Of a stretch of DNA of 59,349 nucleotides, positions 397 to 39,683 are shown piece after piece. The DNA comes from Candidatus Thorarchaeota archaeon (GTDB lineage: Archaea > Asgardarchaeota > Lokiarchaeia > Sigyniarchaeales > SOKP01). Under the pieces are notes generated by a model that was given only the letters and a program-made list of their open reading frames with translations, was not told the origin of the DNA and searched no databases. The DNA is taken from NCBI GenBank assembly GCA_048882645.1, contig JBHLRJ010000004.1:1-59349 (forward strand), read 5' to 3'. Position 1 is the stretch's first letter. Each line of letters begins with the position of its first letter. Made by a program: the position numbers and the translations under genes.

Positions 397-825
397 TTAA
401 ATTTTTAACAGAGATAAATCAAATTGAGGATCCCTTGACCTTTCTAAAGTTCTATCAATTTCTAAAATATGAACTTCACCTGTTATTGAGACTATACTCG
501 GTTGGATTAGATGCCCGCCAATCATAGTGTAATCTCTCCTACCTATAGAAATATGTAAGTGAACTACGGGTTTATCATCCATAAATGATATATTTCCCAT
601 GCATGAAATTAATTCAATATATTCATTAAAAGTTTTTGAGATGTATTCTTTCGAGTTAATATCAAAATACCCTATTGTAAATTGTTTTAAGGCTCCTATG
701 CAATTAACTAAACCAGATTTTATATTATGTTTTTTTATCATCTGTATTATTGATTCAATTAAGTCTTCATCTGGCTCAACCTTTCCTACTATAATCCGGT
801 TAATTGTGCTTTCAATACTATTCAT
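397..825 (-). CDS. PPC/DUF296 domain protein
   Basis: Motifs CIGAL, ELISCMGNIS, HLHISIG and GGHL are typical of DUF296. Confidence 0.85.
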   Translation of the reverse strand: MNSIESTINRIIVGKVEPDEDLIESIIQMIKKHNIKSGLVNCIGALKQFTIGYFDINSKEYISKTFNEYIELISCMGNISFMDDKPVVHLHISIGRRDYTMIGGHLIQPSIVSITGEVHILEIDRTLERSRDPQFDLSLLKI

Positions 826-990
826 GTATATTCATCTAAGTAAGTTCTCATACATATCTGATGAATTCAGATTTTTTATATTTGAGCCTAGGGGGTGAAT
901 TAATTATTAAACAATTTTACTCTTTTTTTAAAAATGAGAGAGAATACCATTAAGTTTTTAATTTTGTATGCCCTTACTTATAATATAAAG

Positions 991-1146
991 GTGGATGTGG
1001 ATGTTATGAAAATAAATATTGTCACTTTACTTTTAGCTCAAAATATTAATGTGATTACATCCACGATTATTATTATATAAATCCTTTTCTTTATGAAGTG
1101 AATTTTCATAAAGCTTACTCCACATCCTACTTCATAGAGAGAAAAG
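991..1146 (+). promoter_or_regulatory. Attenuator-like leader with alternative RNA pairings upstream of ileS
   Basis: 1089-1097 pairs with 1105-1113, or 1084-1099 pairs with 1129-1146. 991-1000 can pair with 1057-1064 or with 1120-1127. Confidence 0.6.
1006..1080 (+). CDS. Putative Ile-rich leader peptide of ileS (MKINIVTLLLAQNINVITSTIIII)
   Basis: 24-codon uORF with 8 Ile codons, ending ATT ATT ATT ATA TAA. It follows AAGGTGGA and lies 176 nt before ileS. In-frame GTGs at 991 and 997 are alternative starts. Confidence 0.7.
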   Translation: MKINIVTLLLAQNINVITSTIIII

Positions 1147-1256
1147 ATTGAGAATTGTTATAATAACTTAAAGATGTTAAAAAACATTATTTTTTATAAT
1201 TTTAATTTAACAAGGTTAGGATATCAATAAGAAAATTATCTCAGGTGTTATAGGGG

Positions 1257-4109
1257 TTGAAACTCGAAAAAGAAATAGAACTTATACGGTTTTGGAAGGA
1301 AAAGCAAATATTTGAAAAAAGTGTGGAACAGAAATCAGAGGAGAACCCATATATATTTTATGATGGACCCCCATTTGCAACAGGATTGCCCCATTATGGA
1401 CATATACTGAGTTTTGTAACTAAAGATGTATTTCCAAGATATTGGACAATGAAAGGATATCGTTGCGAGAGAAGATGGGGTTGGGATTGCCATGGGCTTC
1501 CAATAGAAAGTATATGTGAAGATGCATTAAATATAAAACAAAAAAAAGAAATATATGAAATGGGCATAGGAAACTTCAATGAATTTTGTAGATCAAAAGT
1601 ACTCTGGTATACAAATGAATGGAAAAAGACAGTTGAAAGAATGGGAAAATGGATTGAGTTTGATAATTCATACAAGACAATGGATAATTCATATATGGAG
1701 ACAGTGTGGTATATATTTAAGAAAATCTATGAGGAAGGTTTTGTATACAAGGGTAAAAAAGTATTATTTTATTGTCCACGATGTGAAACGCCATTATCTA
1801 ATTCTGAAATTTCAATGGATAATAGTTATAAAGACATAACCGAACAATCAATAACAGCGAAGTTTAAATTAAAAGAAGAAGAAAATACTTTCCTGTTAGC
1901 GTGGACAACTACACCTTGGACTCTGATTGGTAATGTAGCTTTAGCTGTAAATAGTAAGGAGATCTATGTTAAAATAAAGGTTGGCGATGAATTCTTAATA
2001 TTAATAGAAAATCAGTTAAGCATTGTTAGTGATGATTATGAAATTGTAGAGTGTTTTAAAGGAAAAAAGCTTCTCTTCAAAAAATATGAGCCATTATATG
2101 AAATTTCTAATGGTTCAGAGAAGGAAGGATATATTGTTATTGACGGGGGTGATGAAGTTCTCATTGAGGAGGGAACAGGTGTTATACATCTAGCGGTATA
2201 TGGGGAATTTGACTATGAAATGATTAAAAAATATGGCTTGCCTCTCATTCAACATATTGATGAACATGGTAACCTCTTTCTCGGTCCAAAGGAGTGGATT
2301 GGTTTGTGGTTTAAGGACGTAGATAATGAAGTTTTAGATGATTTAGAACAAAGAGGATTGTTATTTAGTTCTGAGGATCATGTACACTCTTATCCATTCT
2401 GTTATAGATGTGATACACCTTTAATGTATAATGCCTTGGATGCATGGTTCATAAATATTCAGCGAATTAAACCAACACTTTTGAAAACCAATGAAATGAT
2501 CAATTGGTACCCAAAAGAAATTTCTAAAAGATATCAAAATATACTAGAAACAGCTCCAGATTGGTGTATCTCCAGAAATCGATTTTGGGCTACTGCGATT
2601 CCCATATGGGAATGTAAGGGATGTGAAGAGATTGCAGTTATAGGATCCGTAAAGGAATTAAGAGAATTGGCTATAGAAGATGTGCCTGAAGATTTAGATT
2701 TACACCGACATATGGTTGATAAAATACATCTTCAATGCCAAAATTGCGGTTCAGTGATGGATCGCATAACAGAAGTGTTTGATTGTTGGTTAGAATCAGG
2801 ATCTATGCCATATGCGTCGAAACATTATCCATTTGAAAATGTAGAATGGTTTAAATCCAATTTTCCAAGCGATTTTGTGTCTGAGTACGTTGGACAAGTA
2901 AGGGCATGGTTTTACTATATGCATGTAGTATCTATTCTTTTATTTAATAATATTCCGTTTAAAAATGTGGTAGTAAATGGTAATATTCTTGCTGAAGATG
3001 GTACTAAAATGTCAAAATCGAAAAGAAACTTCCCTGATCCAAATCTAATAATTGAAAAGTATGGAGCAGATGCATTAAGGGTTTATCTTTTATCATCACA
3101 ATTGATGCGGGCGCAAGATTTGAACTTTAAGGAAGACATCGTAAAACAAATTTATCGAAGATTCAATTTACTACTGTTTAATGTGTTGAATTTCTACTCA
3201 TTGATTGAAATCGATGATTTGAGTATGAAGTTAAGCAATTTAGATAACGTTTTAGATCGCTGGGTAATTAGTATGCTAAAAATTTTAATTAGGGAAGTTA
3301 CCAATCGAATGGATGATTACGACACAGCAGAAGTATGTAGGCTTTTCTTTAATTTTGTGGAAAATCTCTCAACTTGGTATCTGAAAAATAGTAGAAATCG
3401 TTTTAAAAGTGACAATAAAAACGAGCAATTTTCAGCGATGATCATATTAACTTATGTCCTTGAGAACTTATCAAAACTCCTAGCTCCATTAACGCCTTTC
3501 ATTGCAGAGAATATATATCAGAAGTTAAAGGAAAGGAATGTGGTGGAATTAGAATCTGTTCATTTAGAGAATTGGCCTGATCTTGATGAAAAATTAATAG
3601 ATGTAGAACTTAATAAAAAGATGGATTTAGCACGTGAAATAGTTAAACGATCATTAGAATTAAGAGATAACGCGAAAATACCTATAAGACAAGTGTTAAA
3701 CAAAATCACATTAAGAGGAGTAGTGCTTGAGAGAGATTATTTGGAAGTAATAGCAAAAGCTATAAATGTAAGAGACATCATAATAGAAAAGGGAGAAAAT
3801 GAGGAGTTTAATATAATCTTAGATACAGAAATTACACCTGAGTTAAAACTTGAAGGAATAGCAAGAAATCTAATCAGACATATTAATAATTATAGAAAAG
3901 AACTAAAATTATCGACAAAGAATCGAATTATTCTTTATATAGAAACAAAAAGTAAGGAAGTTATAAAAGGAGTTGAAAAACATGAAGAAAAAATTAAAAA
4001 ATTGGTACAAGCAGATAGTATTGTAACACAGGTTAAAGGAAGGACAGATACAAAGAAATTCAAAATTGAAGACAATATTATTGAAGTATATATAGAACTT
4101 AAAAACTAA
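1257..4109 (+). CDS. ileS: Isoleucine--tRNA ligase (archaeal/eukaryotic type)
   Basis: DGPPFATGLPHYGH (HIGH motif), GWDCHGLP, WTTTPWTL, DWCISRNRFW and KMSKS motifs. Confidence 0.97.
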   Translation: MKLEKEIELIRFWKEKQIFEKSVEQKSEENPYIFYDGPPFATGLPHYGHILSFVTKDVFPRYWTMKGYRCERRWGWDCHGLPIESICEDALNIKQKKEIYEMGIGNFNEFCRSKVLWYTNEWKKTVERMGKWIEFDNSYKTMDNSYMETVWYIFKKIYEEGFVYKGKKVLFYCPRCETPLSNSEISMDNSYKDITEQSITAKFKLKEEENTFLLAWTTTPWTLIGNVALAVNSKEIYVKIKVGDEFLILIENQLSIVSDDYEIVECFKGKKLLFKKYEPLYEISNGSEKEGYIVIDGGDEVLIEEGTGVIHLAVYGEFDYEMIKKYGLPLIQHIDEHGNLFLGPKEWIGLWFKDVDNEVLDDLEQRGLLFSSEDHVHSYPFCYRCDTPLMYNALDAWFINIQRIKPTLLKTNEMINWYPKEISKRYQNILETAPDWCISRNRFWATAIPIWECKGCEEIAVIGSVKELRELAIEDVPEDLDLHRHMVDKIHLQCQNCGSVMDRITEVFDCWLESGSMPYASKHYPFENVEWFKSNFPSDFVSEYVGQVRAWFYYMHVVSILLFNNIPFKNVVVNGNILAEDGTKMSKSKRNFPDPNLIIEKYGADALRVYLLSSQLMRAQDLNFKEDIVKQIYRRFNLLLFNVLNFYSLIEIDDLSMKLSNLDNVLDRWVISMLKILIREVTNRMDDYDTAEVCRLFFNFVENLSTWYLKNSRNRFKSDNKNEQFSAMIILTYVLENLSKLLAPLTPFIAENIYQKLKERNVVELESVHLENWPDLDEKLIDVELNKKMDLAREIVKRSLELRDNAKIPIRQVLNKITLRGVVLERDYLEVIAKAINVRDIIIEKGENEEFNIILDTEITPELKLEGIARNLIRHINNYRKELKLSTKNRIILYIETKSKEVIKGVEKHEEKIKKLVQADSIVTQVKGRTDTKKFKIEDNIIEVYIELKN

Positions 4110-4203: not shown

Positions 4204-5659
4204 ATGCTCAAAATCTATAATACAATGACAAGGCAAAAGGAAGTTTTTACACCCCTCGAAGAAGGTCATGTGAAGATCTATACATGTGGTCAAACTGTCG
4301 TAGCATCTAGCTAGATTGGACAAAACAGTCTATGATGATGTTCACATAGGAAATGCGAGAACCTATAGTTCTTGGGATGTAGTAGTTCGATATTTACAGT
4401 ATAAGGGTTATAACGTTTTTCATGTTCAAAACTTTACGGATGTCGGCCATTTAACTGATGATGCAGATCAAGGTGAAGACAAAATAGAAAAACGAGCAAA
4501 GGAACAAAAAGTTAATCCTTGGGAGCTCGTTGATAAACAAATTGAGGAGTATTGGCAAGTAGTTGATGATTTGAATATTCTTAGGCCAAATATCACCCCT
4601 AGAGCGACATCTTTAATCCCTGAAATGATTGAGTTGATTAAAATTCTTATAGATAAGGGTTACGCTTACGAAGTACAGGGGAATGTTTATTATGATATTT
4701 CTAAATTTCCTAATTATACAAAGCTTTCGGGATTAAAACTTGATGAAGAAGCCGCACAAGCTCGAGTAGATCAAGATGAACTCAAACGAAACCCTTTTGA
4801 TTTTGCTCTATGGTTAAATGCAAAAAAGGGGGATGAGATTCATATAATGAGATGGAAATCACCATGGGGAGAGGGATATCCAGGATGGCATCTTGAATGT
4901 TCCATTATGGCATTGAAATTCCTTGGTGATACCATCGATATACATGGTGGTGGCATTGATCACATTCCTACTCACCATCCAAATGAAATTGCTCAAGCTG
5001 AAGCCGCTACGGGAAAGAAATTTGTTCAATATTGGATGCATGCTGCATTTATTACCTTAAACGGAAGAAAGATGAGTAAAAGTCTTGGAAATTATGTCAC
5101 CGCCCGAGAATTGATTGATAAACATGGAGGATTGGTTGTTCGAATGGGATTAATATCTGGGCATTATAGATCAGCTGTCGATTGGAATCCAGATGTTATC
5201 GAAAATGCAAAAAAGAATACTGAAAGAATTCGAAACTGTTTAAGTCTAGTTAATGATTCTCCCGGTGGAAATAAATCTAACCTAAATCAAGCTATAGATG
5301 TTGTAAAACAGGCGTTCGAGCAAGCAATGGATGATGATTTTAACCAACCAAAGGCATTAGCTGCAATTCATGAATTTATCACTCAAATAAATTCTTCCCT
5401 GGATAATAAGAAGGAGATCCTGAATAGAGCAAAGAAAACCCTACTCGAATTACTCGGTGTGTTTGGACTTGATTTTACAGCAAAGAAAGGGATTGATGAT
5501 ACAAAAATAAATGAATTAATGGATATTATAATTAAAGTTAGAGAAAAGGCTAGAAAGGACAAGGATTATGGTTTGAGCGATGAGATACGAGAGAAATTAC
5601 GAACAGTGGGCATCCAAATAGAAGATACAGATGAAGGACCACGATGGAGAATTGTATAA
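4204..5659 (+). CDS. cysS: Cysteine--tRNA ligase, reading frame interrupted by a 31-nt segment (4300-4330)
   Basis: N-terminus [15 protein letters not shown]...YTCGQTV (4204-4299) continues as [10 protein letters not shown] from 4331 in another frame. [12 protein letters not shown] and KMSKS motifs are intact. Confidence 0.92.
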
Positions 5660-16269: not shown

Positions 16270-18045
16270 ATGAATTCAGCTCGAATGATTGTAAAATATT
16301 GGTTAAAATCGAAAAAATTTTTCATTTTACAATTTGTATATTTATTCTTAGCAACTATTTTTTACATCATTACTCCTGTATTCATAGGGAACATGGTAGG
16401 AGTGCTTGATCCTAAACTAACTCTTAGTTCTGGAGAACGGATTAGGCAATTTTTAAGAAGTTTTTTTCTAATTATAATATTTTCAGCACTTAGATATATC
16501 ACAAATAGAGCAGCAAGACTTAAAGGTGCGGAGGTATCTACCCGAGCAATTTATCATCTTCGTAATGATATTAGTAATGCAATTTATCGGCAATCATTTT
16601 CATATTTTGATAAGACTGAGACAGGTCAATTAATATCTAGGGCTACCAGTGATATTGAAGAAACACAAATGATATTTGGTATGGGATTAACGTTAGGGCT
16701 TCAATCAGCCCTTCAAATGATAGGAGTTGTGGCGGGATTTCTTTTATTTAGCGTCGAATTATCATTTATCTTAGTAATTACAATTTTATTATCCCTTTTA
16801 ATGTCATATTATATTGCTAAAAAGCTCAAACCGATTTTTTTAGAAACAAGAGAGAGTTTTGGTGAACTAACAAATACAATGAGGGAAAATATTGTTGGTG
16901 CTCAGGTGGTGCGCATGTTTAGTACTCAGAATAAAGAGCGACAGAAGTTTCGAAGAAACAATTCCAGATTTTATGACGCGAGTGTTCAATCTGTAAAATA
17001 TAATTCTTTATACCAGCCTTTAATTTATGTGATAATTGGCTTTATGACAATCGCAATCCTCTTTATTGGGGGAATTAAATATATTGATGGGTCAATGGAT
17101 TTGGCTACGTTAGGCACATTACAAGCATATATTATCTCTCTTAGTTTTCCTTTAATGATGTTTGGACAGATATTATTAGCTTACATCCAAGCGGATGCTG
17201 CACTTACACGTGTTAGGGAGGTATTAGAATCAACACCAGATATTAATGACTTACCAGACGCAATTCCTGTTAAATCTTTAAATGGAGATATTAACTTTGA
17301 TAATGTTTCTTTTGGATATACTCAAGATCATAGAATATTAAAAAATTTATCATTTGAACTGCCCGCAGGAAAGAAATTGGCGATATTGGGTACGACCGGG
17401 TCTGGTAAATCAACGATTATAAACTTAATTCCTCGCTTTTATGAGGTTAATGATGGTAGTATTAAAATTGATAATATCGATATTCGAAGGTATTTGTTAA
17501 AGGATTTACGGAAATACATTGGAATTGTGTCTCAAGAAACTTTTCTCTTTAACAAAAGTATAGCAGATAATATCGCTTACGGAAAAGAAGATGCCACTAA
17601 AGACGAAATAATCCAAGCATCCAAAATTGCTAAATTACATGAATTTATTTCATCATTACCTAAAGGTTATAATTCTATTGTAGGAGAAAGAGGTACAAGA
17701 TTGTCAGGAGGGCAAAAACAGCGTTTATCAATCGCTCGGGCTTTACTAATAAAACCGAAAATATTAATTCTTGATGATTCTACAAGTTCGGTTGATGTAG
17801 AGACAGAATATCAAATTCAAAAGGAATTATTAAGAATAATGAAAGGAACCACAACGATCATCATCACTCAGAGAATTTCTACAATTAGAGGAGCAGATTA
17901 TATTTTAATTTTAGATAGGGGAAGGGTCGTCGGTTTTGGAACTCATGATGAATTGATTAGTTCAAATGTTTTGTATAAACAAATTTATGAAACTTTATAT
18001 CAGAAACAAAAATCTAAAATTAAGCTTGAAATTGAAGGCAATTAG
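16270..18045 (+). CDS. ABC exporter, fused permease/ATPase (heterodimer subunit A)
   Basis: TM domain, GTTGSGKS, LSGGQ, and a degenerate Walker B (ILDDS) and switch (ITQR). Confidence 0.93.
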   Translation: MNSARMIVKYWLKSKKFFILQFVYLFLATIFYIITPVFIGNMVGVLDPKLTLSSGERIRQFLRSFFLIIIFSALRYITNRAARLKGAEVSTRAIYHLRNDISNAIYRQSFSYFDKTETGQLISRATSDIEETQMIFGMGLTLGLQSALQMIGVVAGFLLFSVELSFILVITILLSLLMSYYIAKKLKPIFLETRESFGELTNTMRENIVGAQVVRMFSTQNKERQKFRRNNSRFYDASVQSVKYNSLYQPLIYVIIGFMTIAILFIGGIKYIDGSMDLATLGTLQAYIISLSFPLMMFGQILLAYIQADAALTRVREVLESTPDINDLPDAIPVKSLNGDINFDNVSFGYTQDHRILKNLSFELPAGKKLAILGTTGSGKSTIINLIPRFYEVNDGSIKIDNIDIRRYLLKDLRKYIGIVSQETFLFNKSIADNIAYGKEDATKDEIIQASKIAKLHEFISSLPKGYNSIVGERGTRLSGGQKQRLSIARALLIKPKILILDDSTSSVDVETEYQIQKELLRIMKGTTTIIITQRISTIRGADYILILDRGRVVGFGTHDELISSNVLYKQIYETLYQKQKSKIKLEIEGN

Positions 18046-18058
18046 AGGAGATTTTTAA

Positions 18059-20596
18059 ATGTTAGAAAAACCACACCAAGAAGAATCCGAAGAAGAAAAA
18101 GAAATAGTGCAACCAATGGCTACTATGCGTCCAAGATTTATGATCGATTATGAAGAAAAAGAGCTAGAACATCCAAGAAGAACTTTATGGAAATGGTTAA
18201 TCTCCTACTTAATCCCTTTTAAGGGGAAATTTTTTCTATTTCTTGGCTTTCTTTTAGCAGGTACTATAATAACTGCAATTACTCCTGGGATCTCAGCCAA
18301 TATTATTGATCATGGTATCATTCCTGGAAATTTTTATTATGTTTTGATTATGAGCGTAATCTACTTGTCTTTGATGATTTTTATGGCGATATTTACTTAT
18401 TACTCACAATATGGGATGGGAAAAATCTCTCAGAAAGTAACTTTTGAGATAAGAAACGATCTTTTCTATAAGCTCCAAGAGATGTCACTCACCTACTTTG
18501 ATCGAAAGTCATCTGGAGATACTATGTCAATAGTTACTAATGATGTTACTTTACTTAACCAATTAGTAGGGGGGCAATTTGTCCAAATTATTAGTAGCAT
18601 TGTATCAATTGTCTCGACGATTATTGTAATGTTCGTATTAAACCCATTTTTAGGGTTAATTAGCTTACCTATTATTCCAATTTTCTTATTCCTAACTTGG
18701 ATTTTCAGAAAAGTCGCATTTGGTCTTTTTAAAGAATCGCGAAAAACAATCGGTAGGGTTACTTCTTCAATTCAAGAGAATATCGCGGGTGCAAAGGTGG
18801 TTCAGGCTTATGGTCAAGAGGGAAAAGCATCTTCTGAATTTGATAAGGCTAATACAGCAAATTACAATGCAATGGTAAGAATAAGAAAATATATGGCTAC
18901 TATTTTTCCGTTAATAAATATGCTAACCACTATACTTACTGCTGGCATTCTTTTAGCAGGAGGTTATGCTCTACTTGGCAATGTCTCAATTTTTGGTATA
19001 TCTGTTTCGCCAGGTGTTCTTACGGCATATATCGTTTATTTGGGACAATTCTTCAGACCTTTCATGACATTGATGCAGATACAACAAGTCGTAGAATCCT
19101 CAATGGCAGCAAGTGATCGAATTTATACATTATTAGAAGAAGAAGTTGAAATTCCCGATAGCACTGAACCTAAACATTTTAATGAAGTAAAAGGGGCGAT
19201 CGAGTTTGAAGACGTAAATTTTGGATATATTATTGACGATGCTACTAAGAGAGATGATAAACAGATTATAAAACCATTTCCTTTTACCCAAAATCCTATG
19301 GCTCAAAATCCTATCATGAAACAAGGATTTGAATTAATAAAATCTCTGCCTGAACCATATTCTTCTTTTATTCTCAAGAATATAATGCATATGCCTCAAG
19401 ATATTAGACACAAGTTAATGTTTAATTTAATGAAATGGGAGCCTTTAGAAATTCCAAACAAAATTGATGAGATTCTCGGGGATTTTAGCGTTGCTGTCCC
19501 TAATACTGTATTTGCGGAAAATCACCCAAATTATAAAACTTCATTTGAACCTGAACCAAAACTTCTAAAAGGTCAAATTATGAAAGAAGAAGAAAAATTT
19601 CCAAATTTTTCTATTGATCAAATGGTACCTCCAGAAGGAATAAGAATGATGGTCAAATTTTTAGTAAGAAATTTACAATCTAATGCTCCGATCCAACAGA
19701 GTGGTGGAATGAGAGGAGAGGGAGGAGATATGATGGGTGGCGGAATGAGCAGAATGTCACCTCAATCTATGACCGAAATGCTTGCCAATATAACTATTCC
19801 TCCCGAGATATATGATACAATACCGAAAATAGTTAAAGATGCTATAAACGAACAAAAAATATTGATTCAACATAAACAATCTAAAGGTTATGTGTTAAAA
19901 GATCTCTCTTTAAATGTACCAGCAGGGATCACATTGGCTATTGTAGGTGAAACTGGAGCAGGAAAGACGACCTTAGTTAAACTAATAGCTCGATTTTATG
20001 ACATAAATAGTGGAAAAATTCTTATTGATGGAATAGACATTCGAGAAGTTCGTAAAGAAGATTTAAGAGATTTAATAGGTCTTGTACCCCAAGATGCTTT
20101 TCTTTTCACTGGTACTATCAAAGAAAATCTACTATATGCCTTTGATAACCCTACTCCAGAAGACGAGGAAAAAATGATTGAAGTCTCGAAATTTTTAGGC
20201 TTACATAATTTTATTGATACACTGCATAAGAAATATGAAACAAAATTAAAAGAAAATGCATCAAATATTTCAATTGGACAGCGACAATTAATTGCTTTTG
20301 CAAGAGCATTAATCACTGACCCAAAAATCTTAATCTTAGATGAAGCTACATCTTCAGTCGACCCTTACACCGAATCATTAATACAAGATGCTTTGAACAA
20401 AGCCCGTGAAGGAAGAACAACAATTATAATAGCCCACCGGCTCTCAACTATAAAAAATGCAGATCTCATTGTTGTATTAAATGCAGATAAAAAAGGTATA
20501 ATAGAACAAGGAGATCATGAATCGTTAATTGCTTTGAATGGAAAATATAAGCGACTGTTAGAAATGCAACATAGGGACGTTGAAGTAGACAATTGA
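18059..20596 (+). CDS. ABC exporter, fused permease/ATPase (heterodimer subunit B) with a ~220-aa insertion in the NBD
   Basis: TM domain, GETGAGKT, ISIGQ, ILDEA and IAHR. Confidence 0.9.
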   Translation: MLEKPHQEESEEEKEIVQPMATMRPRFMIDYEEKELEHPRRTLWKWLISYLIPFKGKFFLFLGFLLAGTIITAITPGISANIIDHGIIPGNFYYVLIMSVIYLSLMIFMAIFTYYSQYGMGKISQKVTFEIRNDLFYKLQEMSLTYFDRKSSGDTMSIVTNDVTLLNQLVGGQFVQIISSIVSIVSTIIVMFVLNPFLGLISLPIIPIFLFLTWIFRKVAFGLFKESRKTIGRVTSSIQENIAGAKVVQAYGQEGKASSEFDKANTANYNAMVRIRKYMATIFPLINMLTTILTAGILLAGGYALLGNVSIFGISVSPGVLTAYIVYLGQFFRPFMTLMQIQQVVESSMAASDRIYTLLEEEVEIPDSTEPKHFNEVKGAIEFEDVNFGYIIDDATKRDDKQIIKPFPFTQNPMAQNPIMKQGFELIKSLPEPYSSFILKNIMHMPQDIRHKLMFNLMKWEPLEIPNKIDEILGDFSVAVPNTVFAENHPNYKTSFEPEPKLLKGQIMKEEEKFPNFSIDQMVPPEGIRMMVKFLVRNLQSNAPIQQSGGMRGEGGDMMGGGMSRMSPQSMTEMLANITIPPEIYDTIPKIVKDAINEQKILIQHKQSKGYVLKDLSLNVPAGITLAIVGETGAGKTTLVKLIARFYDINSGKILIDGIDIREVRKEDLRDLIGLVPQDAFLFTGTIKENLLYAFDNPTPEDEEKMIEVSKFLGLHNFIDTLHKKYETKLKENASNISIGQRQLIAFARALITDPKILILDEATSSVDPYTESLIQDALNKAREGRTTIIIAHRLSTIKNADLIVVLNADKKGIIEQGDHESLIALNGKYKRLLEMQHRDVEVDN

Positions 20597-35492: not shown

Positions 35493-37067
35493 TTAAGTGT
35501 GATTAACCTCTTCCCCATATCCTATTAAACGATAACGTCTATTGATGATTCGAGAAATTGCATATATAAAATTTTCTGGAGGACATATTGGTGGAGTAAG
35601 TTTTATTACTGTGCTATTTTTAAGTATCTTGGTTACAGTTCCTCCTGTCTTTTCTGTTCCAACCACTAATAACAACTTTTCCCCATGTTTTAAAGGCTGA
35701 ACTTTCATCTGAACTTCTGCGCCGATAACTCTGTCTAAAAGGTTAACTTTCAACTCAATTTCATTTAAAATCTCTGGGAGTGTTCCTGGACCTCCTACTA
35801 AGTGGCCAATTAGATGATCACCTTTAGTTAAGGCCGGATCCAATTTTGTACCTAATCCAATTAATCCTCCTGGTTTGGCAACTTGTAAGAGATTGTTTCC
35901 TTGACTAATACTAATAACTGTTGATCTAATTGGTATGTATTCATCTTTAATACGAATACCTGGTTTGATCTCAATTTGATCTCCAATATTAATCTTTCCT
36001 TTTAATACAGATCCTCCGATTACCCCACCTTTTAAATCTGTAATCTCTCTTCCTGGTAAGTTGATATCAAACGATCGAGCAATTAAAAATTGAAAGAATT
36101 CTTCTTCATTAAACTCAGGAGAGGGGATTACTTCTTCAAATGCCCTTACAACAGTAGGCATGTTCGCTCCAAAAACGGCAGATACAGGTATGATTGGAGC
36201 GTTCTCAGCAACAGTACCTTTCACAAAATCTATAATCTGTTGATGATTCTCCATAGCTTGCTCTTTGGATACAGCATCAATCTTGTTCTGCAAAATAATT
36301 ATGTTCTTTATACCAGCTATGTTTAGTGCTGCTAAATGTTCACGAGTTTGAGGTTGGGGGCATGGCTCATCAGCAGCAATTAAAAGACATGCACCATCCA
36401 TTAATGAAGCACCACTTAACATAGTCGCCATTAAAATCTCATGACCTGGTGCATCCACAAATGAGATGTTCCTCTTAAACTCCAAGTTTGCTTTACAATT
36501 CGAGCATGTAAATCGAGATTGTCCTTTTGTCCTCCTTTGTTCTGCTAGATAAGCTGTAAGATACTCATCACAAGTGGGGCAATAAAGAATTGTCGCATTT
36601 GAATACCCTAATTTGATGGAGATCCCCCTTTCTTGCTCTTCAGAATGCCGGTCTGTCCAATCTCCTGTTAAAGATTTAACTAAGGTGGTTTTACCATGGT
36701 CTACATGCCCAACTAATCCTATATTGCATTCTGCTTGTTGCTTAATAAGCTCTTTTATCTTTAAACCCTTACCTTCTGAATCTGGTTTTTTTTTTGTTTG
36801 AGTTTTAGATTTTGGTTCTTTTGTTTCGATTTTTTCTTCCTGAACTGTCTTGGAAGGTTGTTCCTTAGTAGAAATTTCTTTCAGAATTTCTTTCGCATTA
36901 GTAATGATCTTCTCTGCAGTTGCCTTTCCGATCCCTTTTATTTTCAATTTTACTAAATCACTGGAAGCTAACTTTGCCAGTTTTTCAATTGAATCTATCC
37001 CTGCAGCTCTCATTTTCTGAGCGGTGGTTTTCCCTATTCCCGAAATATCCTCTAATTCATAAGACAT
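35493..37067 (-). CDS. eif2g: Translation initiation factor aIF2 gamma with an N-terminal helix-hairpin-helix extension
   Basis: GHVDHGKT, RGISIKLGY, DAPGHE, PQPQTREH and NKID motifs; N-terminal ISGIGKTTA and IKGIGKATA. Confidence 0.95.
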   Translation of the reverse strand: MSYELEDISGIGKTTAQKMRAAGIDSIEKLAKLASSDLVKLKIKGIGKATAEKIITNAKEILKEISTKEQPSKTVQEEKIETKEPKSKTQTKKKPDSEGKGLKIKELIKQQAECNIGLVGHVDHGKTTLVKSLTGDWTDRHSEEQERGISIKLGYSNATILYCPTCDEYLTAYLAEQRRTKGQSRFTCSNCKANLEFKRNISFVDAPGHEILMATMLSGASLMDGACLLIAADEPCPQPQTREHLAALNIAGIKNIIILQNKIDAVSKEQAMENHQQIIDFVKGTVAENAPIIPVSAVFGANMPTVVRAFEEVIPSPEFNEEEFFQFLIARSFDINLPGREITDLKGGVIGGSVLKGKINIGDQIEIKPGIRIKDEYIPIRSTVISISQGNNLLQVAKPGGLIGLGTKLDPALTKGDHLIGHLVGGPGTLPEILNEIELKVNLLDRVIGAEVQMKVQPLKHGEKLLLVVGTEKTGGTVTKILKNSTVIKLTPPICPPENFIYAISRIINRRYRLIGYGEEVNHT

Positions 37068-37192
37068 ATTATCATAAAATTTAGTTATTGTATCTGCTGT
37101 ATAATTATATCTCTATAAAAGAGTAAGAAAATATTTTTTATTAAATTAATCAATAAACCAATTTGTTTTAAAAAATTCTAAGAAAAAATCTT

Positions 37193-37411
37193 TTATTTTG
37201 TTAAAATGGTAGTAATCCCACCAGGTTTTTTCTCAAGTTCTTTATATGACACTCTCAAAAGACTGTCTACAAAGAAGGTGGACACTTTTTTACATGATTT
37301 GCACTTAATGTAAACTGGAGCAGGATATTGGCCAGTATCTATATCCTTCATTTCAATTTCAAACACAATCTTCTTCTCGCAATGTGGACAAGTATTAAAT
37401 CGGAGAGGCAT
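37193..37411 (-). CDS. Small zinc-binding protein
   Basis: CPHC and CKSC pairs. Confidence 0.65.
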   Translation of the reverse strand: MPLRFNTCPHCEKKIVFEIEMKDIDTGQYPAPVYIKCKSCKKVSTFFVDSLLRVSYKELEKKPGGITTILTK

Positions 37412-37580
37412 ATTTAATTAATTCTGTTGGATGTATAGAATTCTCGTAGATTTGAGTGTAATTTCAATACGAGGATTTAGGTTTATAAGTATATTCTAAC
37501 AATTTATTTTTATAATAAATAGATTCTTATTTTTATATTATTACTTTTAAAATTAATAATAATTTAGAATTTGATATCAG

Positions 37581-39683
37581 ATGGCAAAGAATCACTTCAG
37601 AATATTAGTTTGCCTTTTCTTTGTTCAAATAATGATTCTGCCAATAATTGGGACTTTCTTAATTTCTCCTGTTTCGTATTTAAACCAAGATTCTTCAAAA
37701 GTGGAAATATCTTCTACTGTATTTTCTAAAGTGGATTTATCAGTTTTGCCTGAGATTGATTACAACACTTTAAATGAACAGTGGTATAATCCAAAAGTTG
37801 AAATGTTAATTATTAGCCCAGATAATCCAGAGTTCATTGATTCTCTTACTCCTTTGATGGATTGGAAGAATGAAAAAGGAGTTAAAACGATTATTTTAAG
37901 TAATTTTTCTTCATATCCGGGGAGGGATAATGAGGAAAAGATAAGAAATATGATAAAATCTTATTATAAGAAAGATAGAATACGTTGGGTTCTCTTAGCT
38001 GGAGATGCAGAAGACAGTTTAATCCCAATTAGGAAAGTGTATAATCCCGATGCTTTAAGATGGGGTGAGGGAAGAACTGAAACTGTGGGAGGAGAATATT
38101 ATAAACCCACAGATTTCTATTATGTAGATCTTAATGGAAGTTGGAATAGTGATGAGGATGGCAATTGGGGAGAGTCTTCTCAAGATAATTCATATGGATT
38201 AGATGAAATTTCATGGGATCCAGAAGTATATGTAGGGAGATTCCCCGCGAATAATGCAGATGAACTTGAAATAATGGTAAATAAAACGTTAAAATATGAA
38301 AAGGATCCTAACATTGGCGAGTGGATGAATAATATGCTTCTTGCAGGTGGTGTGTCCAGTTATGTTCCCCAAGAATTTGAAAGTAGGTTAACAAATTATA
38401 TAATTCATAACTATGCTAAAACTGAGGTTAATTACACCCATTTAGCTGATGAAACAGGAAATTTGTCTAGAGCAATATTGAAAAGTTATTTTAATAATGG
38501 ATTTTCTACGGTTTTAATGGCAGGTCATGGAAGTCCGACAAATTATTATAGAAATCCTAGTGCTCCAGGATATACATCTGGAGATGCTGGTTCAACTACG
38601 AATTTAGACATGCCTTCATTAGTTTATCTTGATGCCTGTTCAACTTCAAGTTATGATATTAATGACAACAGCATCGGTGAAACACTAATAAAGAGACTTG
38701 ATGCAGGAGCGATTGGAGCGATAGGTGGTTTAAGAGTTACTTGGTATTATGAAGATGATAAGAATTTAGAAAAGTTAAATCGTGGAAATGCAAAATTATT
38801 TTGGAAAGAATTCTTTCAAGAAAAGAAATTCCAACAGGGAAGAGCATTATATGATTCCAAAGTTTCGTATATGAATAGTGATTATTTTAAACATGGTTTC
38901 AAAAATTTCGATTTTGAACGTAAAAATCTTCTAACATATTGTCTTTTGGGAGACCCAGAAGTCGATGTTTATACAAATAAGCCAAAATTGGCAATGAATT
39001 CTTTTAAGGAAAATTATTATGAAGGACAACTTGTTTCAATTGTTATTAAAGATATAAATAATAAAATTGTACCTTATGGAAGGGTACATCTTACAAGCCT
39101 TGATGGAAAATACCATACAGTTTATGCAGATATTAATGGTGTTGCTAAATTTCGGCTTCCCGCACAAAGTAATGAAACTTATAACATTACTATAACAGGG
39201 CATAACTTAATTCCTTCCTACTTTAATTTTACAACGCTTCCAGATGAAACAAAACCTATAATCCAAAATACTCAATGTCTTCCGGGGAGACCTTCAACTT
39301 CAGATATTATATCATTTTCATTTAATTCTATTGATAATTATTCAGGAACAGAAGGCGTGTTTCTCTTTATATCTAAAAACAGCTTTGATGATTATTCGTT
39401 TTACAGCATAAATAATAAGTTTCTTGAGAATAAAAACTCATTTACAATAGATACTGAAAGATTCAGTCCAGGGAAATATGCTTTTTTCATGGTTGCTAGA
39501 GATTATGCTAATAATACTGATCTCTATTATCATAATTCCTTCAAGTTTACAATACCAGATCCAATAATAGATTATGTACTACCTATTTCCTTAGTTGTTA
39601 TTATTGGTATCTCTGGAGTGTCTCTATTTATTATCTGTAGAAATATAAGAAAAGAATCTCGAGTAAAGGACGACTTAATATAG
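37581..39683 (+). CDS. Membrane-anchored C25 (gingipain-like) cysteine peptidase
   Basis: WKNEKG, LLAGD, TDFYY, VGRFP, catalytic GHG and DAC, and LLGDP motifs; signal peptide and C-terminal TM helix. Confidence 0.9.
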   Translation: MAKNHFRILVCLFFVQIMILPIIGTFLISPVSYLNQDSSKVEISSTVFSKVDLSVLPEIDYNTLNEQWYNPKVEMLIISPDNPEFIDSLTPLMDWKNEKGVKTIILSNFSSYPGRDNEEKIRNMIKSYYKKDRIRWVLLAGDAEDSLIPIRKVYNPDALRWGEGRTETVGGEYYKPTDFYYVDLNGSWNSDEDGNWGESSQDNSYGLDEISWDPEVYVGRFPANNADELEIMVNKTLKYEKDPNIGEWMNNMLLAGGVSSYVPQEFESRLTNYIIHNYAKTEVNYTHLADETGNLSRAILKSYFNNGFSTVLMAGHGSPTNYYRNPSAPGYTSGDAGSTTNLDMPSLVYLDACSTSSYDINDNSIGETLIKRLDAGAIGAIGGLRVTWYYEDDKNLEKLNRGNAKLFWKEFFQEKKFQQGRALYDSKVSYMNSDYFKHGFKNFDFERKNLLTYCLLGDPEVDVYTNKPKLAMNSFKENYYEGQLVSIVIKDINNKIVPYGRVHLTSLDGKYHTVYADINGVAKFRLPAQSNETYNITITGHNLIPSYFNFTTLPDETKPIIQNTQCLPGRPSTSDIISFSFNSIDNYSGTEGVFLFISKNSFDDYSFYSINNKFLENKNSFTIDTERFSPGKYAFFMVARDYANNTDLYYHNSFKFTIPDPIIDYVLPISLVVIIGISGVSLFIICRNIRKESRVKDDLI

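What the first reader, a model, noticed from the sequence alone, without database searches (positions are those of the whole stretch)
991..1146. Ile-rich leader peptide with switchable hairpins before ileS: possible ribosome-mediated attenuation in an archaeon
Seen: uORF 1006-1080 encodes MKINIVTLLLAQNINVITSTIIII with four consecutive Ile codons before the stop, directly upstream of the Ile-tRNA ligase gene. Right after the stop, a perfect 9-bp hairpin (1089-1097/1105-1113) competes with a longer pairing (1084-1099/1129-1146). The SD-like region 991-1000 can pair with either 1057-1064 or 1120-1127. Known: runs of cognate codons in leader peptides sense tRNA charging in bacteria (pheM-pheST, ilv, thr), and such control is barely documented in archaea. 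Inference: stalling on the Ile codons switches the structure and controls ileS. No classic hairpin-plus-U-tract terminator is visible, so the output mechanism is unclear. Ile codons are common in AT-rich DNA, so chance is not excluded.
Basis: partly seen in the sequence, partly recalled or inferred. Interest (0 to 1): 0.82.

Follow-up and report, generated by a model that had tools for sequence, protein, structure and literature searches.

The report
Isoleucine-sensing leader before archaeal ileS
A short upstream reading frame ending in a run of isoleucine codons, wrapped in two competing RNA folds, is conserved in front of a spare isoleucyl-tRNA synthetase gene in Asgard archaea and looks like an archaeal version of the bacterial leader-peptide attenuator.

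Summary
The window comes from a Promethearchaeota (Loki-type Asgard) MAG. The gene at 1257-4109 is an accessory second IleRS (ileS2); a 1048-aa-frame ileS1 lies on another contig. The uORF 1006-1080 is kept in all 39 genomes of two genera that carry ileS2, and in none of the 96 family genomes that lack it. Each uORF has 20-25 codons, three invariant ATT codons, then 0-2 codons and a stop.

Covariation supports two alternative folds. In the ground state, 991-1000 pairs with 1055-1064 (A:B) and stem P forms (1087-1100/1128-1141).

The output step is unresolved. There is no hairpin-plus-U terminator, no predicted change in ileS2 RBS accessibility, and no RNA data.

The same design recurs in this family: uORFs ending in Leu runs precede leuS (30 of 30 loci) and leuA (29 of 30 loci). 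My six literature searches found no archaeal leader-peptide attenuator.

The parts
945..961 (+). Conserved TACC + T-rich block; candidate BRE/TATA of the leader promoter (inferred)
   Evidence: Invariant or near-invariant columns in alignment A1. The spacing of about 42 nt to GGATGTGG is the same in g1 and g14 sequences, read by eye. Its function as a promoter is inferred, not shown.
978..990 (+). Second TATA-like block directly upstream of element A. It could be a promoter for a leaderless uORF, or the initiator region of the first promoter.
   Evidence: Conserved in A1. Which of the two blocks is used cannot be decided without RNA data.
991..1003 (+). Element A (GTGGATGTGGATG), the 5' strand shared by both alternative helices
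   Evidence: Invariant core in 39 leaders. It pairs with B (97.4% of cells) or with C (99.1% of cells).
1006..1080 (+). Leader uORF of 24 codons; regulatory Ile codons at 1066-1077, stop at 1078-1080
   Evidence: Kept in 39 of 39 leaders. Length differences are always whole codons. There is no codon-position periodicity in codons 2-16.
1055..1064 (+). Element B, the 3' strand of helix A:B, lying in the uORF codons just before the Ile run
   Evidence: Three independent compensatory events, plus wobble-compatible single changes.
1087..1100 (+). P5', the 5' arm of stem P, starting 7 nt after the uORF stop (the stem extends to about 1085 in the window)
   Evidence: Eight of 14 pairs show changes on both sides.
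1089..1113 (+).
   Evidence: 72% of cells paired across 14 leaders, similar to the slid controls.
1119..1127 (+). Element C (TCCACATCC), the alternative partner of A, lying in the loop of P and abutting P3'
   Evidence: Nearly invariant. Two compensatory pairs, including the triple change in L159.
1128..1143 (+). P3', the 3' arm of stem P
1190..1195 (+). T6 tract in the AT-rich spacer; possible archaeal oligo-T termination signal or a TATA-like element
   Evidence: Sequence. A tract of T5 or longer is present in most g1 spacers but only T3-T4 in g14. Its function is unknown.
1244..1247 (+). GGTG Shine-Dalgarno-like motif of ileS2
   Evidence: Invariant GG.G in A1. GGTG is enriched 9-14 nt before ATG starts in this genome.
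1257..4109 (+). ileS2, an accessory type-2 isoleucine--tRNA ligase (TTG start)

Best explanation
Region 991-1146 is the sensor domain of a cis-acting leader that reports Ile-tRNA(Ile) supply to the accessory ileS2 gene of a Loki-type Asgard archaeon.

The leader RNA most likely starts a few bases upstream of 991 and is translated from ATG 1006.

- When charged tRNA-Ile is plentiful, the ribosome runs through ATT-ATT-ATT-ATA to the stop and leaves. The RNA then settles in its ground state: helix A:B (991-1000 with 1055-1064) plus stem P (1087-1100 with 1128-1141).
- When charging is poor, because of Ile shortage or inhibition of the housekeeping IleRS1, the ribosome stalls with an Ile codon in its A site. 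Its footprint covers B, so A stays single-stranded.
- Once C (1119-1127) has been transcribed, A pairs with it. C abuts P3' with no linker, so A:C and P cannot coexist, and P is prevented.
- P is proposed to be the negative element and A:C the anti-P element. Stalling would therefore raise ileS2 expression.

What is shown here: the conserved uORF and Ile run; both alternative helices by covariation; their mutual exclusivity by topology; and co-occurrence with ileS2.

What is inferred: translation of the uORF, stalling, the direction of the effect, and the output step. For the output, my preferred guess is premature transcription termination or RNA processing in the AT-rich spacer between P and ileS2, by the archaeal oligo-U/aCPSF1 route rather than a bacterial hairpin-U terminator.
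For: Conservation and co-occurrence
- R1 finds exactly one leader in 30 of 54 genomes of genus g1 and in 9 of 42 of genus g14. It finds none in 22 other genera of the order.
- ileS2 is found in the same 38 genomes at E <= 1e-150. The 39th genome, G064, has its ileS2 cut by a contig end (L058).
- The other 96 genomes of the 135-genome family scan have no ileS2 match at that threshold. R1 gave no hit in the 93 family genomes it scored without a match, a sample that overlaps but is not identical with that scan.
- 25 of 25 named Promethearchaeota-type loci hit R1. None of the 55 DPANN, CPR or other ileS loci do.

uORF
- 39 of 39 leaders keep a start codon (38 ATG, 1 GTG), 20-25 codons, ATT-ATT-ATT, 0-2 further codons, and a stop (36 TAA, 2 TGA, 1 TAG).
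- The body of the peptide drifts without codon periodicity, as expected for a leader peptide.

Structure
- A:B + P: 94.9% of 934 cells paired, 11 of 24 pairs changed on both sides, 0 of 500 shuffles as good, slid controls at most 50% paired.
- A:C: 99.1% of 351 cells paired, 2 compensatory pairs, 0 of 500 shuffles.
- In L159, one G-to-A change in A is matched by C-to-U changes in both B and C.
- Mean duplex energies are A:B -13.8, A:C -16.1 and P -14.0 kcal/mol.
- Masking a ribosome-sized stretch over the Ile codons turns the MFE of the four leaders printed (window, L037, L051, L104) from A:B to A:C.

Same design elsewhere
- leuS leaders ending ...DLLAVLLL(x)stop occur in 30 of 30 loci. One helix strand overlies the Leu codons, and a second hairpin starts at the stop.
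- leuA leaders ending in 3-8 Leu codons occur in 29 of 30 loci across several genera.

Biological logic
- In Priestia megaterium, IleRS1 is constitutive and IleRS2 is induced about 70-fold by mupirocin (bioRxiv 10.1101/2022.02.09.479832; passages read).
Against: - No RNA evidence of any kind. No RNA run was listed, so the transcript start, uORF translation and read-through are unobserved.
- A second TATA-like block at 978-990 sits at about the right distance for a leaderless uORF. That transcript would leave element A untranscribed. Only the A:B and A:C covariation argues against it.
- No bacterial-type terminator: 0 hairpin-plus-T sites in 826-1300, and P is not followed by a U tract.
- The predicted accessibility of the ileS2 SD and start is the same in both states (0.39 versus 0.39; higher in the stalled state in 24 of 39 leaders). 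No expression platform is identified.
- The spacer between P and ileS2 is poorly conserved between clades, and in g14 it has no run of T5 or longer.
- A and C are nearly invariant, so A:C rests on two single-sequence compensations.
- All 117 core Ile codons are ATT, although genome usage is ATT 51%, ATA 34%, ATC 16%. This may reflect an RNA-level constraint rather than codon identity.
- The alignments used for the pair counts were fitted to the model structure, and the sequences are related.
Confidence: 0.7

Rival explanations
1. Drug-type or nascent-peptide-dependent arrest leader, as in the erm, cat and tnaC class. Here the peptide end (...S-x-I-I-I-x-stop) would be an arrest or slow-termination motif. 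It would sense a translation inhibitor or a small molecule rather than Ile-tRNA charging, using the same RNA switch.
For: The run always sits 0-2 codons from the stop. Some peptide positions are fairly constant: F7, L8, N13, I15 and S19. ileS2 looks like an accessory, possibly resistance-type gene with a patchy distribution.
Against: The regulated gene is the cognate synthetase. The two other leaders in the family carry runs cognate to their genes (Leu for leuS and leuA). The peptide body shows no codon periodicity.
Confidence: 0.08
2. Protein-binding operator. The conserved helices would be a binding site on the RNA for IleRS2 or another protein, giving thrS-like autoregulation. Alternatively, the repeated GGATGTGG / CCACATCC words would be DNA sites for a transcription factor. 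In either case the uORF is incidental.
For: A and C are nearly invariant 9-mers in inverted orientation, which is more conserved than pairing alone requires. A lies between a TATA-like block and the uORF start.
Against: Compensatory and wobble-compatible changes between A and B, and the triple change in L159, fit RNA pairing rather than DNA half-sites about 60 and 120 bp apart. This reading explains neither the strict preservation of the ORF, its frame and the ATT run in 39 of 39 leaders nor the analogous Leu leaders.
Confidence: 0.08
3. An independent small gene. The 24-aa hydrophobic-tailed peptide would itself be the functional product, and its position next to ileS2 would reflect shared mobility only.
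For: The ORF is kept in 39 of 39 loci. A T-rich, TATA-like stretch between P and ileS2 could be a separate ileS2 promoter.
Against: Entropy at codon positions 1, 2 and 3 in codons 2-16 is 0.80, 0.82 and 0.95, and single-base codon differences are 679 synonymous against 2333 non-synonymous. That gives no sign of selection on the peptide sequence. The strongest conservation is in RNA helices partly outside the ORF.
Confidence: 0.05
4. Chance: an Ile-rich small ORF and fortuitous pairings in AT-rich intergenic DNA.
For: III occurs in 2.4% of small ORFs in this genome.
Against: 39 of 39 leaders are conserved with covariation, the fold has z = -3.3, and co-occurrence with ileS2 is perfect.
Confidence: 0.01

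Closest known systems
E. coli pheM-pheST leader (leader-peptide attenuation of an aminoacyl-tRNA synthetase operon); recalled, not from a call
   Same: A short leader ORF with a run of codons cognate to the downstream synthetase, and alternative RNA helices read out by ribosome position.
   Different: The host is an archaeon. No hairpin-plus-U terminator is present. The switch here is a 5' strand choosing between two downstream partners, with a clamp stem P. There is no sequence or Rfam relationship.
Bacterial leu / ilv / trp operon leader-peptide attenuators; recalled; general description seen in the abstract of PMC1183508 (search listing)
   Same: Regulatory cognate codons sit near the end of a 14-30-codon leader, next to mutually exclusive structures. 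The leuA leaders found here (3-8 Leu codons) are the direct archaeal counterpart of a leu leader.
   Different: Archaeal RNA polymerase does not use the bacterial intrinsic terminator (recalled). In all three leader types found here, the hairpin after the stop is followed by an AT-rich spacer without a U tract directly after the hairpin (read by eye for leuS/leuA; for ileS2).
T-box riboswitches upstream of ileS in Firmicutes and Actinobacteria
   Same: The same physiological signal (uncharged tRNA-Ile) and the same class of target gene.
   Different: T-boxes bind tRNA directly and need no translation. No T-box or any other Rfam family matches this region.
Priestia megaterium ileS1/ileS2 pair (bioRxiv 10.1101/2022.02.09.479832; passages read)
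   Same: A constitutive IleRS1 plus an inducible type-2 IleRS2 that is switched on when tRNA-Ile charging fails.
   Different: There, control is assigned to a T-box and CodY. Here it is a translated Ile-codon leader. The archaeal ileS2 is closest to DPANN and CPR enzymes (55-62% and about 47% identity).
Mycobacterial polycysteine leaderless uORF attenuators (bioRxiv 10.1101/834739; abstract in search listing only)
   Same: Runs of cognate codons in a very short first ORF act as an amino-acid sensor for downstream genes without a classical terminator.
   Different: Different domain of life and different amino acid. Whether the uORF here is leaderless is undecided.

Membership tests
Ribosome-mediated (leader-peptide) transcription attenuators | Short leader ORF with tandem codons cognate to the regulated gene | tested here: met
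   ATT-ATT-ATT(-ATA) at 1066-1077 before ileS2. Kept in 39 of 39 leaders.
Ribosome-mediated (leader-peptide) transcription attenuators | Leader ORF maintained as a translatable unit (start, frame and stop) while the peptide sequence drifts | tested here: met
   38 ATG and 1 GTG starts. All length differences are whole codons. No codon-position periodicity.
Ribosome-mediated (leader-peptide) transcription attenuators | Mutually exclusive RNA helices, one strand of which lies under a ribosome stalled at the regulatory codons | tested here: met
   A:B + P versus A:C. B ends 2 nt before the first Ile codon. Masking the footprint gives A:C in the four leaders printed; one search enforced A:C rather than testing it.
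Ribosome-mediated (leader-peptide) transcription attenuators | One alternative is an intrinsic terminator (GC-rich hairpin followed by a U tract) | tested here: not met
   0 terminator-like sites in 826-1300. P is AU-rich and is followed by an A-rich sequence.
Ribosome-mediated (leader-peptide) transcription attenuators | Leader co-transcribed with the gene, and read-through increases on amino-acid limitation | not testable with these tools
   No RNA holder was listed. The organism is uncultured.
Translational attenuation (erm/cat type) | The RBS of the downstream gene is sequestered in one structure and freed by the stalled ribosome | tested here: not met
   The unpaired probability of the ileS2 SD and start is 0.39 in both enforced states across 39 leaders. 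This is an in silico result only.
T-box riboswitch | Match to the T-box covariance model (specifier loop and antiterminator bulge) | tested here: not met
   No Rfam hit at gathering score, and only noise at E <= 10.
Isoleucine--tRNA ligase (for the regulated gene) | Equivalog model above its cut-off, with class I signature motifs | tested here: met
   TIGR00392 scores 821 bits against 621.4. HYGH at residue 46 and KMSKS at residue 584.

The most novel reading that the evidence does not exclude
Leader-peptide sensing of tRNA charging is a general regulatory strategy in Loki-type Asgard archaea, seen before ileS2, leuS and leuA, with a possible echo in Nanoarchaeia. It would work through an expression platform unlike the bacterial one: a hairpin placed at or just after the uORF stop, whose formation is set by ribosome position. 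That hairpin would control archaeal RNA polymerase/aCPSF1-dependent termination, RNA processing, or re-initiation. If so, this is the first case of translation-coupled attenuation in Archaea, in the closest prokaryotic relatives of eukaryotes.
Probability: 0.5. Interest if true: 0.92.

Novelty: new variant of a known kind. Interest (0 to 1): 0.85.

Why it matters
Leader-peptide attenuation is a textbook bacterial mechanism that depends on coupled transcription and translation. My six full-text searches found no archaeal example. Archaeal Ribo-seq papers only list uORFs without assigning them a function (passages read).

This work provides a family of leaders with a clear sensor logic in Asgard archaea:
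- 39 Ile leaders with covarying alternative helices;
- two Leu leader families built to the same plan.

That makes several questions directly testable:
- whether archaea use ribosome position to control downstream genes;
- what replaces the bacterial terminator;
- how an accessory, horizontally acquired IleRS is held in reserve.

It also gives annotators a covariance model and a simple rule for finding more such elements: a cognate codon run, then 0-2 codons, then a stop, then a hairpin.

Tried and rejected
RNA evidence. The look-up of sequencing runs listed 20 DNA or metagenome holders and no RNA holder.

Known RNA families. Rfam gave no hit at gathering score and only noise at E <= 10. No tRNA lies in the window.

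Bacterial terminators and promoters. The scan found 0 terminators. The sigma-70 matches it listed are irrelevant for an archaeon.

RBS sequestration. Enforced-state partition functions showed no difference in accessibility.

Downstream partners. I looked by eye for a downstream partner of P3' or P5' (a 'D' segment) and for pairing between C and the ileS2 SD. Nothing was conserved across clades.

The small hairpin 1089-1097/1105-1113 is not conserved.

ileS1 leader. No Ile-run uORF lies upstream of the housekeeping ileS1, and none upstream of the valS-like gene.

Crude genome-wide scan of G000 for homo-amino-acid-run uORFs.
- First pass: 10 downstream genes annotated, none cognate. The VVV 'uORF' before an acetolactate-synthase-like gene lies inside the upstream gene.
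- Second pass: 47 uORFs with a run at the C-terminus. I annotated 20. Only leuA was cognate. leuS was the 21st, and 26 were not annotated.

leuA leaders. RNAalifold on these returned no pairs because the automatic alignment of diverged sequences was poor. The hairpin after the stop was seen by eye only.

16S rRNA is not assembled in G000, so the anti-SD sequence was not checked.

DPANN and CPR ileS loci. 4 of 51 loci had any III-containing small ORF upstream. Only the Nanoarchaeia pair looked meaningful.

Paper supplements were not requested. Structure, complex, atlas and protein-database searches were not used because they do not bear on this question.

Full report
WHAT IS IN THE WINDOW. Between a divergent PCC-domain gene (397-825, minus strand) and a 950-aa gene starting with TTG at 1257 lies a 431-nt AT-rich spacer. 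The gene is isoleucine--tRNA ligase: TIGR00392 scores 821 bits against a cut-off of 621, with HYGH at residue 46 and KMSKS at residue 584. ATG 1006 to TAA 1078-1080 encodes MKINIVTLLLAQNINVITSTIIII, with ATT ATT ATT ATA at 1066-1077. The pairings it listed are also present. The 164-nt stretch 984-1147 folds at -33.7 kcal/mol (z = -3.3; 1 of 200 shuffles folds as well) into helix A:B plus a long stem P.

ORGANISM AND GENE CONTEXT. The window is contig C4 of a 3.79-Mb, 31% GC MAG that is 88% complete. Public records of its close relatives are titled Promethearchaeota, among them 'Loki_b32', so this is a Loki-type Asgard archaeon. The genome carries a second IleRS with a 1048-aa frame and 34% identity on contig C120. 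That copy is found throughout the genus. The window's gene is therefore an accessory paralogue, here called ileS2. Its nearest relatives outside the group are DPANN archaea (55-62% identity) and then CPR bacteria (about 47%). The only cysS of the genome lies directly downstream, and it follows ileS2 in 12 of 13 relatives' loci.

CONSERVATION AND CO-OCCURRENCE. I built a covariance model (R1) from 14 leaders.
- It finds exactly one copy in 30 of 54 genomes of the genus.
- In a sample of 151 genomes of the order, it hits only two genera of one family: g1 in 28 of 52 genomes plus the window's own genome, and g14 in 9 of 42. The other 22 genera have none.
- A protein search with the N-terminal half of IleRS2 finds the gene in the same genomes (38 of 135 in the family at E <= 1e-150). 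The one exception, G064, has its ileS2 cut by a contig end.
- Leader and gene therefore co-occur in 39 of 39 genomes. The other 96 genomes of the 135-genome family scan lack ileS2, and R1 found no leader in the 93 family genomes without a match in its own, overlapping sample.
- Among 80 named loci retrieved with IleRS2, all 25 Promethearchaeota-type loci (70% identity or more) hit R1. None of the other 55 do.
- The housekeeping ileS1 has no such leader.

THE uORF. All 39 leaders keep a start codon (38 ATG, 1 GTG), 20-25 codons, the triplet ATT-ATT-ATT, then 0-2 codons and a stop (36 TAA, 2 TGA, 1 TAG) (L159 read by eye). Length differences are whole codons. The body of the peptide drifts without codon-position periodicity: entropies are 0.80, 0.82 and 0.95 at positions 1, 2 and 3. 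That is what one expects of a leader peptide in which only the regulatory codons matter. All 117 core Ile codons are ATT, although the genome uses ATT 51%, ATA 34% and ATC 16%. The codon after the run varies freely. By itself an Ile run is not rare here: 2.4% of small ORFs contain III and 0.22% contain IIII. Conservation, not composition, carries the argument.

STRUCTURE. On 39 distinct leaders, the fold A:B (991-1000 with 1055-1064) plus P (1087-1100 with 1128-1141) has 94.9% of 934 cells paired. Eleven of its 24 pairs change on both sides. None of 500 shuffles reaches the observed values, and slid controls pair at 50% or less. The alternative helix A:C (993-1001 with 1119-1127) has 99.1% of 351 cells paired. 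It is mostly invariant but has two compensatory pairs.

The most telling sequence is L159. A single G-to-A change in A is matched by C-to-U changes in both B and C. C abuts P3' with no linker, and A, P5', C and P3' occur in that order. A:C and P would therefore form a pseudoknot with a zero-length loop, so they are mutually exclusive. That conclusion is topological inference.

Mean duplex energies are A:B -13.8, A:C -16.1 and P -14.0 kcal/mol. A:B + P together is thus the ground state, and A:C wins only if B is unavailable. Masking about 34 nt over the Ile codons in silico moves the MFE to A:C in the four leaders I printed: the window, L037, L051 and L104.

MECHANISM. B ends 2 nt before the first Ile codon. 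A ribosome with an Ile codon in its A site would cover B (footprint size recalled, not measured) while leaving P5' free. Poor tRNA-Ile charging would therefore free A for C and prevent P. I propose that P is the negative element. The direction follows from biological logic only.

OUTPUT STEP: WHAT I COULD NOT FIND. There is no hairpin-plus-U terminator. The predicted accessibility of the ileS2 SD and start is identical in both enforced states (0.39 versus 0.39 across 39 leaders). The spacer between P and ileS2 is AT-rich and poorly conserved between clades. It holds T5-T7 tracts in most g1 genomes but only T3-T4 in g14. Such tracts could be archaeal oligo-T termination signals (recalled knowledge) or a second promoter. 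Two TATA-like blocks precede the uORF. The upstream one (945-961) would put A at the 5' end of the RNA. The nearer one (978-990) would give a leaderless uORF without A. The covariation of A with B and C favours the first.

GENERALITY. A crude scan of this genome for uORFs ending in a homo-amino-acid run turned up two further cognate cases.
- leuS. A uORF ending ...DLLAVLLL(x)stop lies 125-159 nt upstream in 30 of the 30 loci fetched, out of 38 genomes of the genus with a match. Its consensus fold has one helix whose 3' strand overlies the A-V-L-L codons, an inner hairpin with many double changes, and a second helix that starts at the stop codon.
- leuA. This is 2-isopropylmalate synthase (NF002085, 569 bits against a cut-off of 517). 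In the window's genome a uORF ending in eight Leu codons stops 96 nt upstream. In 29 of the 30 loci fetched, out of 62 family genomes with a match and from several genera, the uORF ends in 3-8 Leu codons plus 0-1 codon plus stop, 86-122 nt upstream. By eye, a long hairpin with different sequences in different genera follows the stop (alignment; RNAalifold itself returned nothing).
- The other 19 of the 20 run-uORF genes that I annotated were unrelated to amino acids, and 26 candidates were not annotated.
- Two closely related Nanoarchaeia have uORFs MKLIINIIIA and MKFIINKIIIE about 110 nt before their ileS. The five other relatives' loci examined, at about 43-71% identity, do not.

COMPARISON WITH WHAT IS KNOWN. 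The design matches bacterial leader-peptide attenuators such as pheM-pheST and the leu, ilv and trp leaders (recalled). It fails the defining terminator feature. It matches no Rfam family, T-box included. The physiological parallel is the Priestia megaterium pair, where IleRS1 is constitutive and IleRS2 is induced about 70-fold by mupirocin (passages read). Six full-text searches found no leader-peptide attenuator described in archaea. Two archaeal Ribo-seq papers mention uORFs only generically. Supplements were closed, and subscription-journal papers are outside the library, so an earlier description cannot be excluded.

LIMITS.
- Everything rests on comparative sequence analysis of related MAGs.
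- The pair counts use model-fitted alignments.
- A:C rests on few substitutions.
- Translation, stalling, transcript ends and regulation are all inferred.

Noticed in passing
G000 contig C52, leuS at 16359-19250 (minus); loci L177-L207: A conserved uORF ending ...DLLAVLLL(x)stop lies 125-159 nt upstream of leuS in 30 of 30 same-genus loci. One helix overlies the Leu codons and a second hairpin starts at the stop codon.
   Followed up: partly
G000 contig C8, leuA at about 36531-38153 (minus); loci L208, L228-L257: A uORF ending in eight Leu codons stops 96 nt before 2-isopropylmalate synthase. 29 of 30 family loci from several genera have a uORF ending in 3-8 Leu codons, followed by a long hairpin that I saw by eye.
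   Followed up: partly
L141/L160 (G154) and L164 (G157), Nanoarchaeia: Ten- and eleven-codon uORFs (MKLIINIIIA, MKFIINKIIIE) ending ATT-ATT-ATT + one codon + TAA lie about 110 nt upstream of the related type-2 ileS. The five other relatives' loci examined (about 43-71% identity) do not have them.
   Followed up: partly
window 1244-1259 and orthologous loci L032-L061: ileS2 starts with TTG in the window. At the same position after the GGTG motif, many orthologues have ATT or ATA and others ATG. In L045 and L048, the in-frame upstream GTG is followed by TAA, so ATT seems to be the start codon.
   Followed up: partly
window 4204-5659: The genome's only cysS is split. The N-terminal 36 residues (4204-4314) end in a stop, and the rest continues in another frame from 4316. 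About 31 extra bases partly repeat the preceding words. This could be an assembly error, an insertion or a real frame break; it is undecided.
   Followed up: partly
G000 contig C120:4818-7964 versus window 1257-4109: There are two IleRS paralogues in one archaeal genome. The accessory one is patchily distributed (39 of 135 family genomes) and is closest to DPANN and CPR enzymes, which suggests horizontal acquisition.
   Followed up: partly
window 1001-1009: A three-codon mini-ORF (ATG TTA TGA) overlaps the uORF start. It is present only where element A ends in ATG, and is absent in leaders with GGAAG or GGACG.
   Followed up: no
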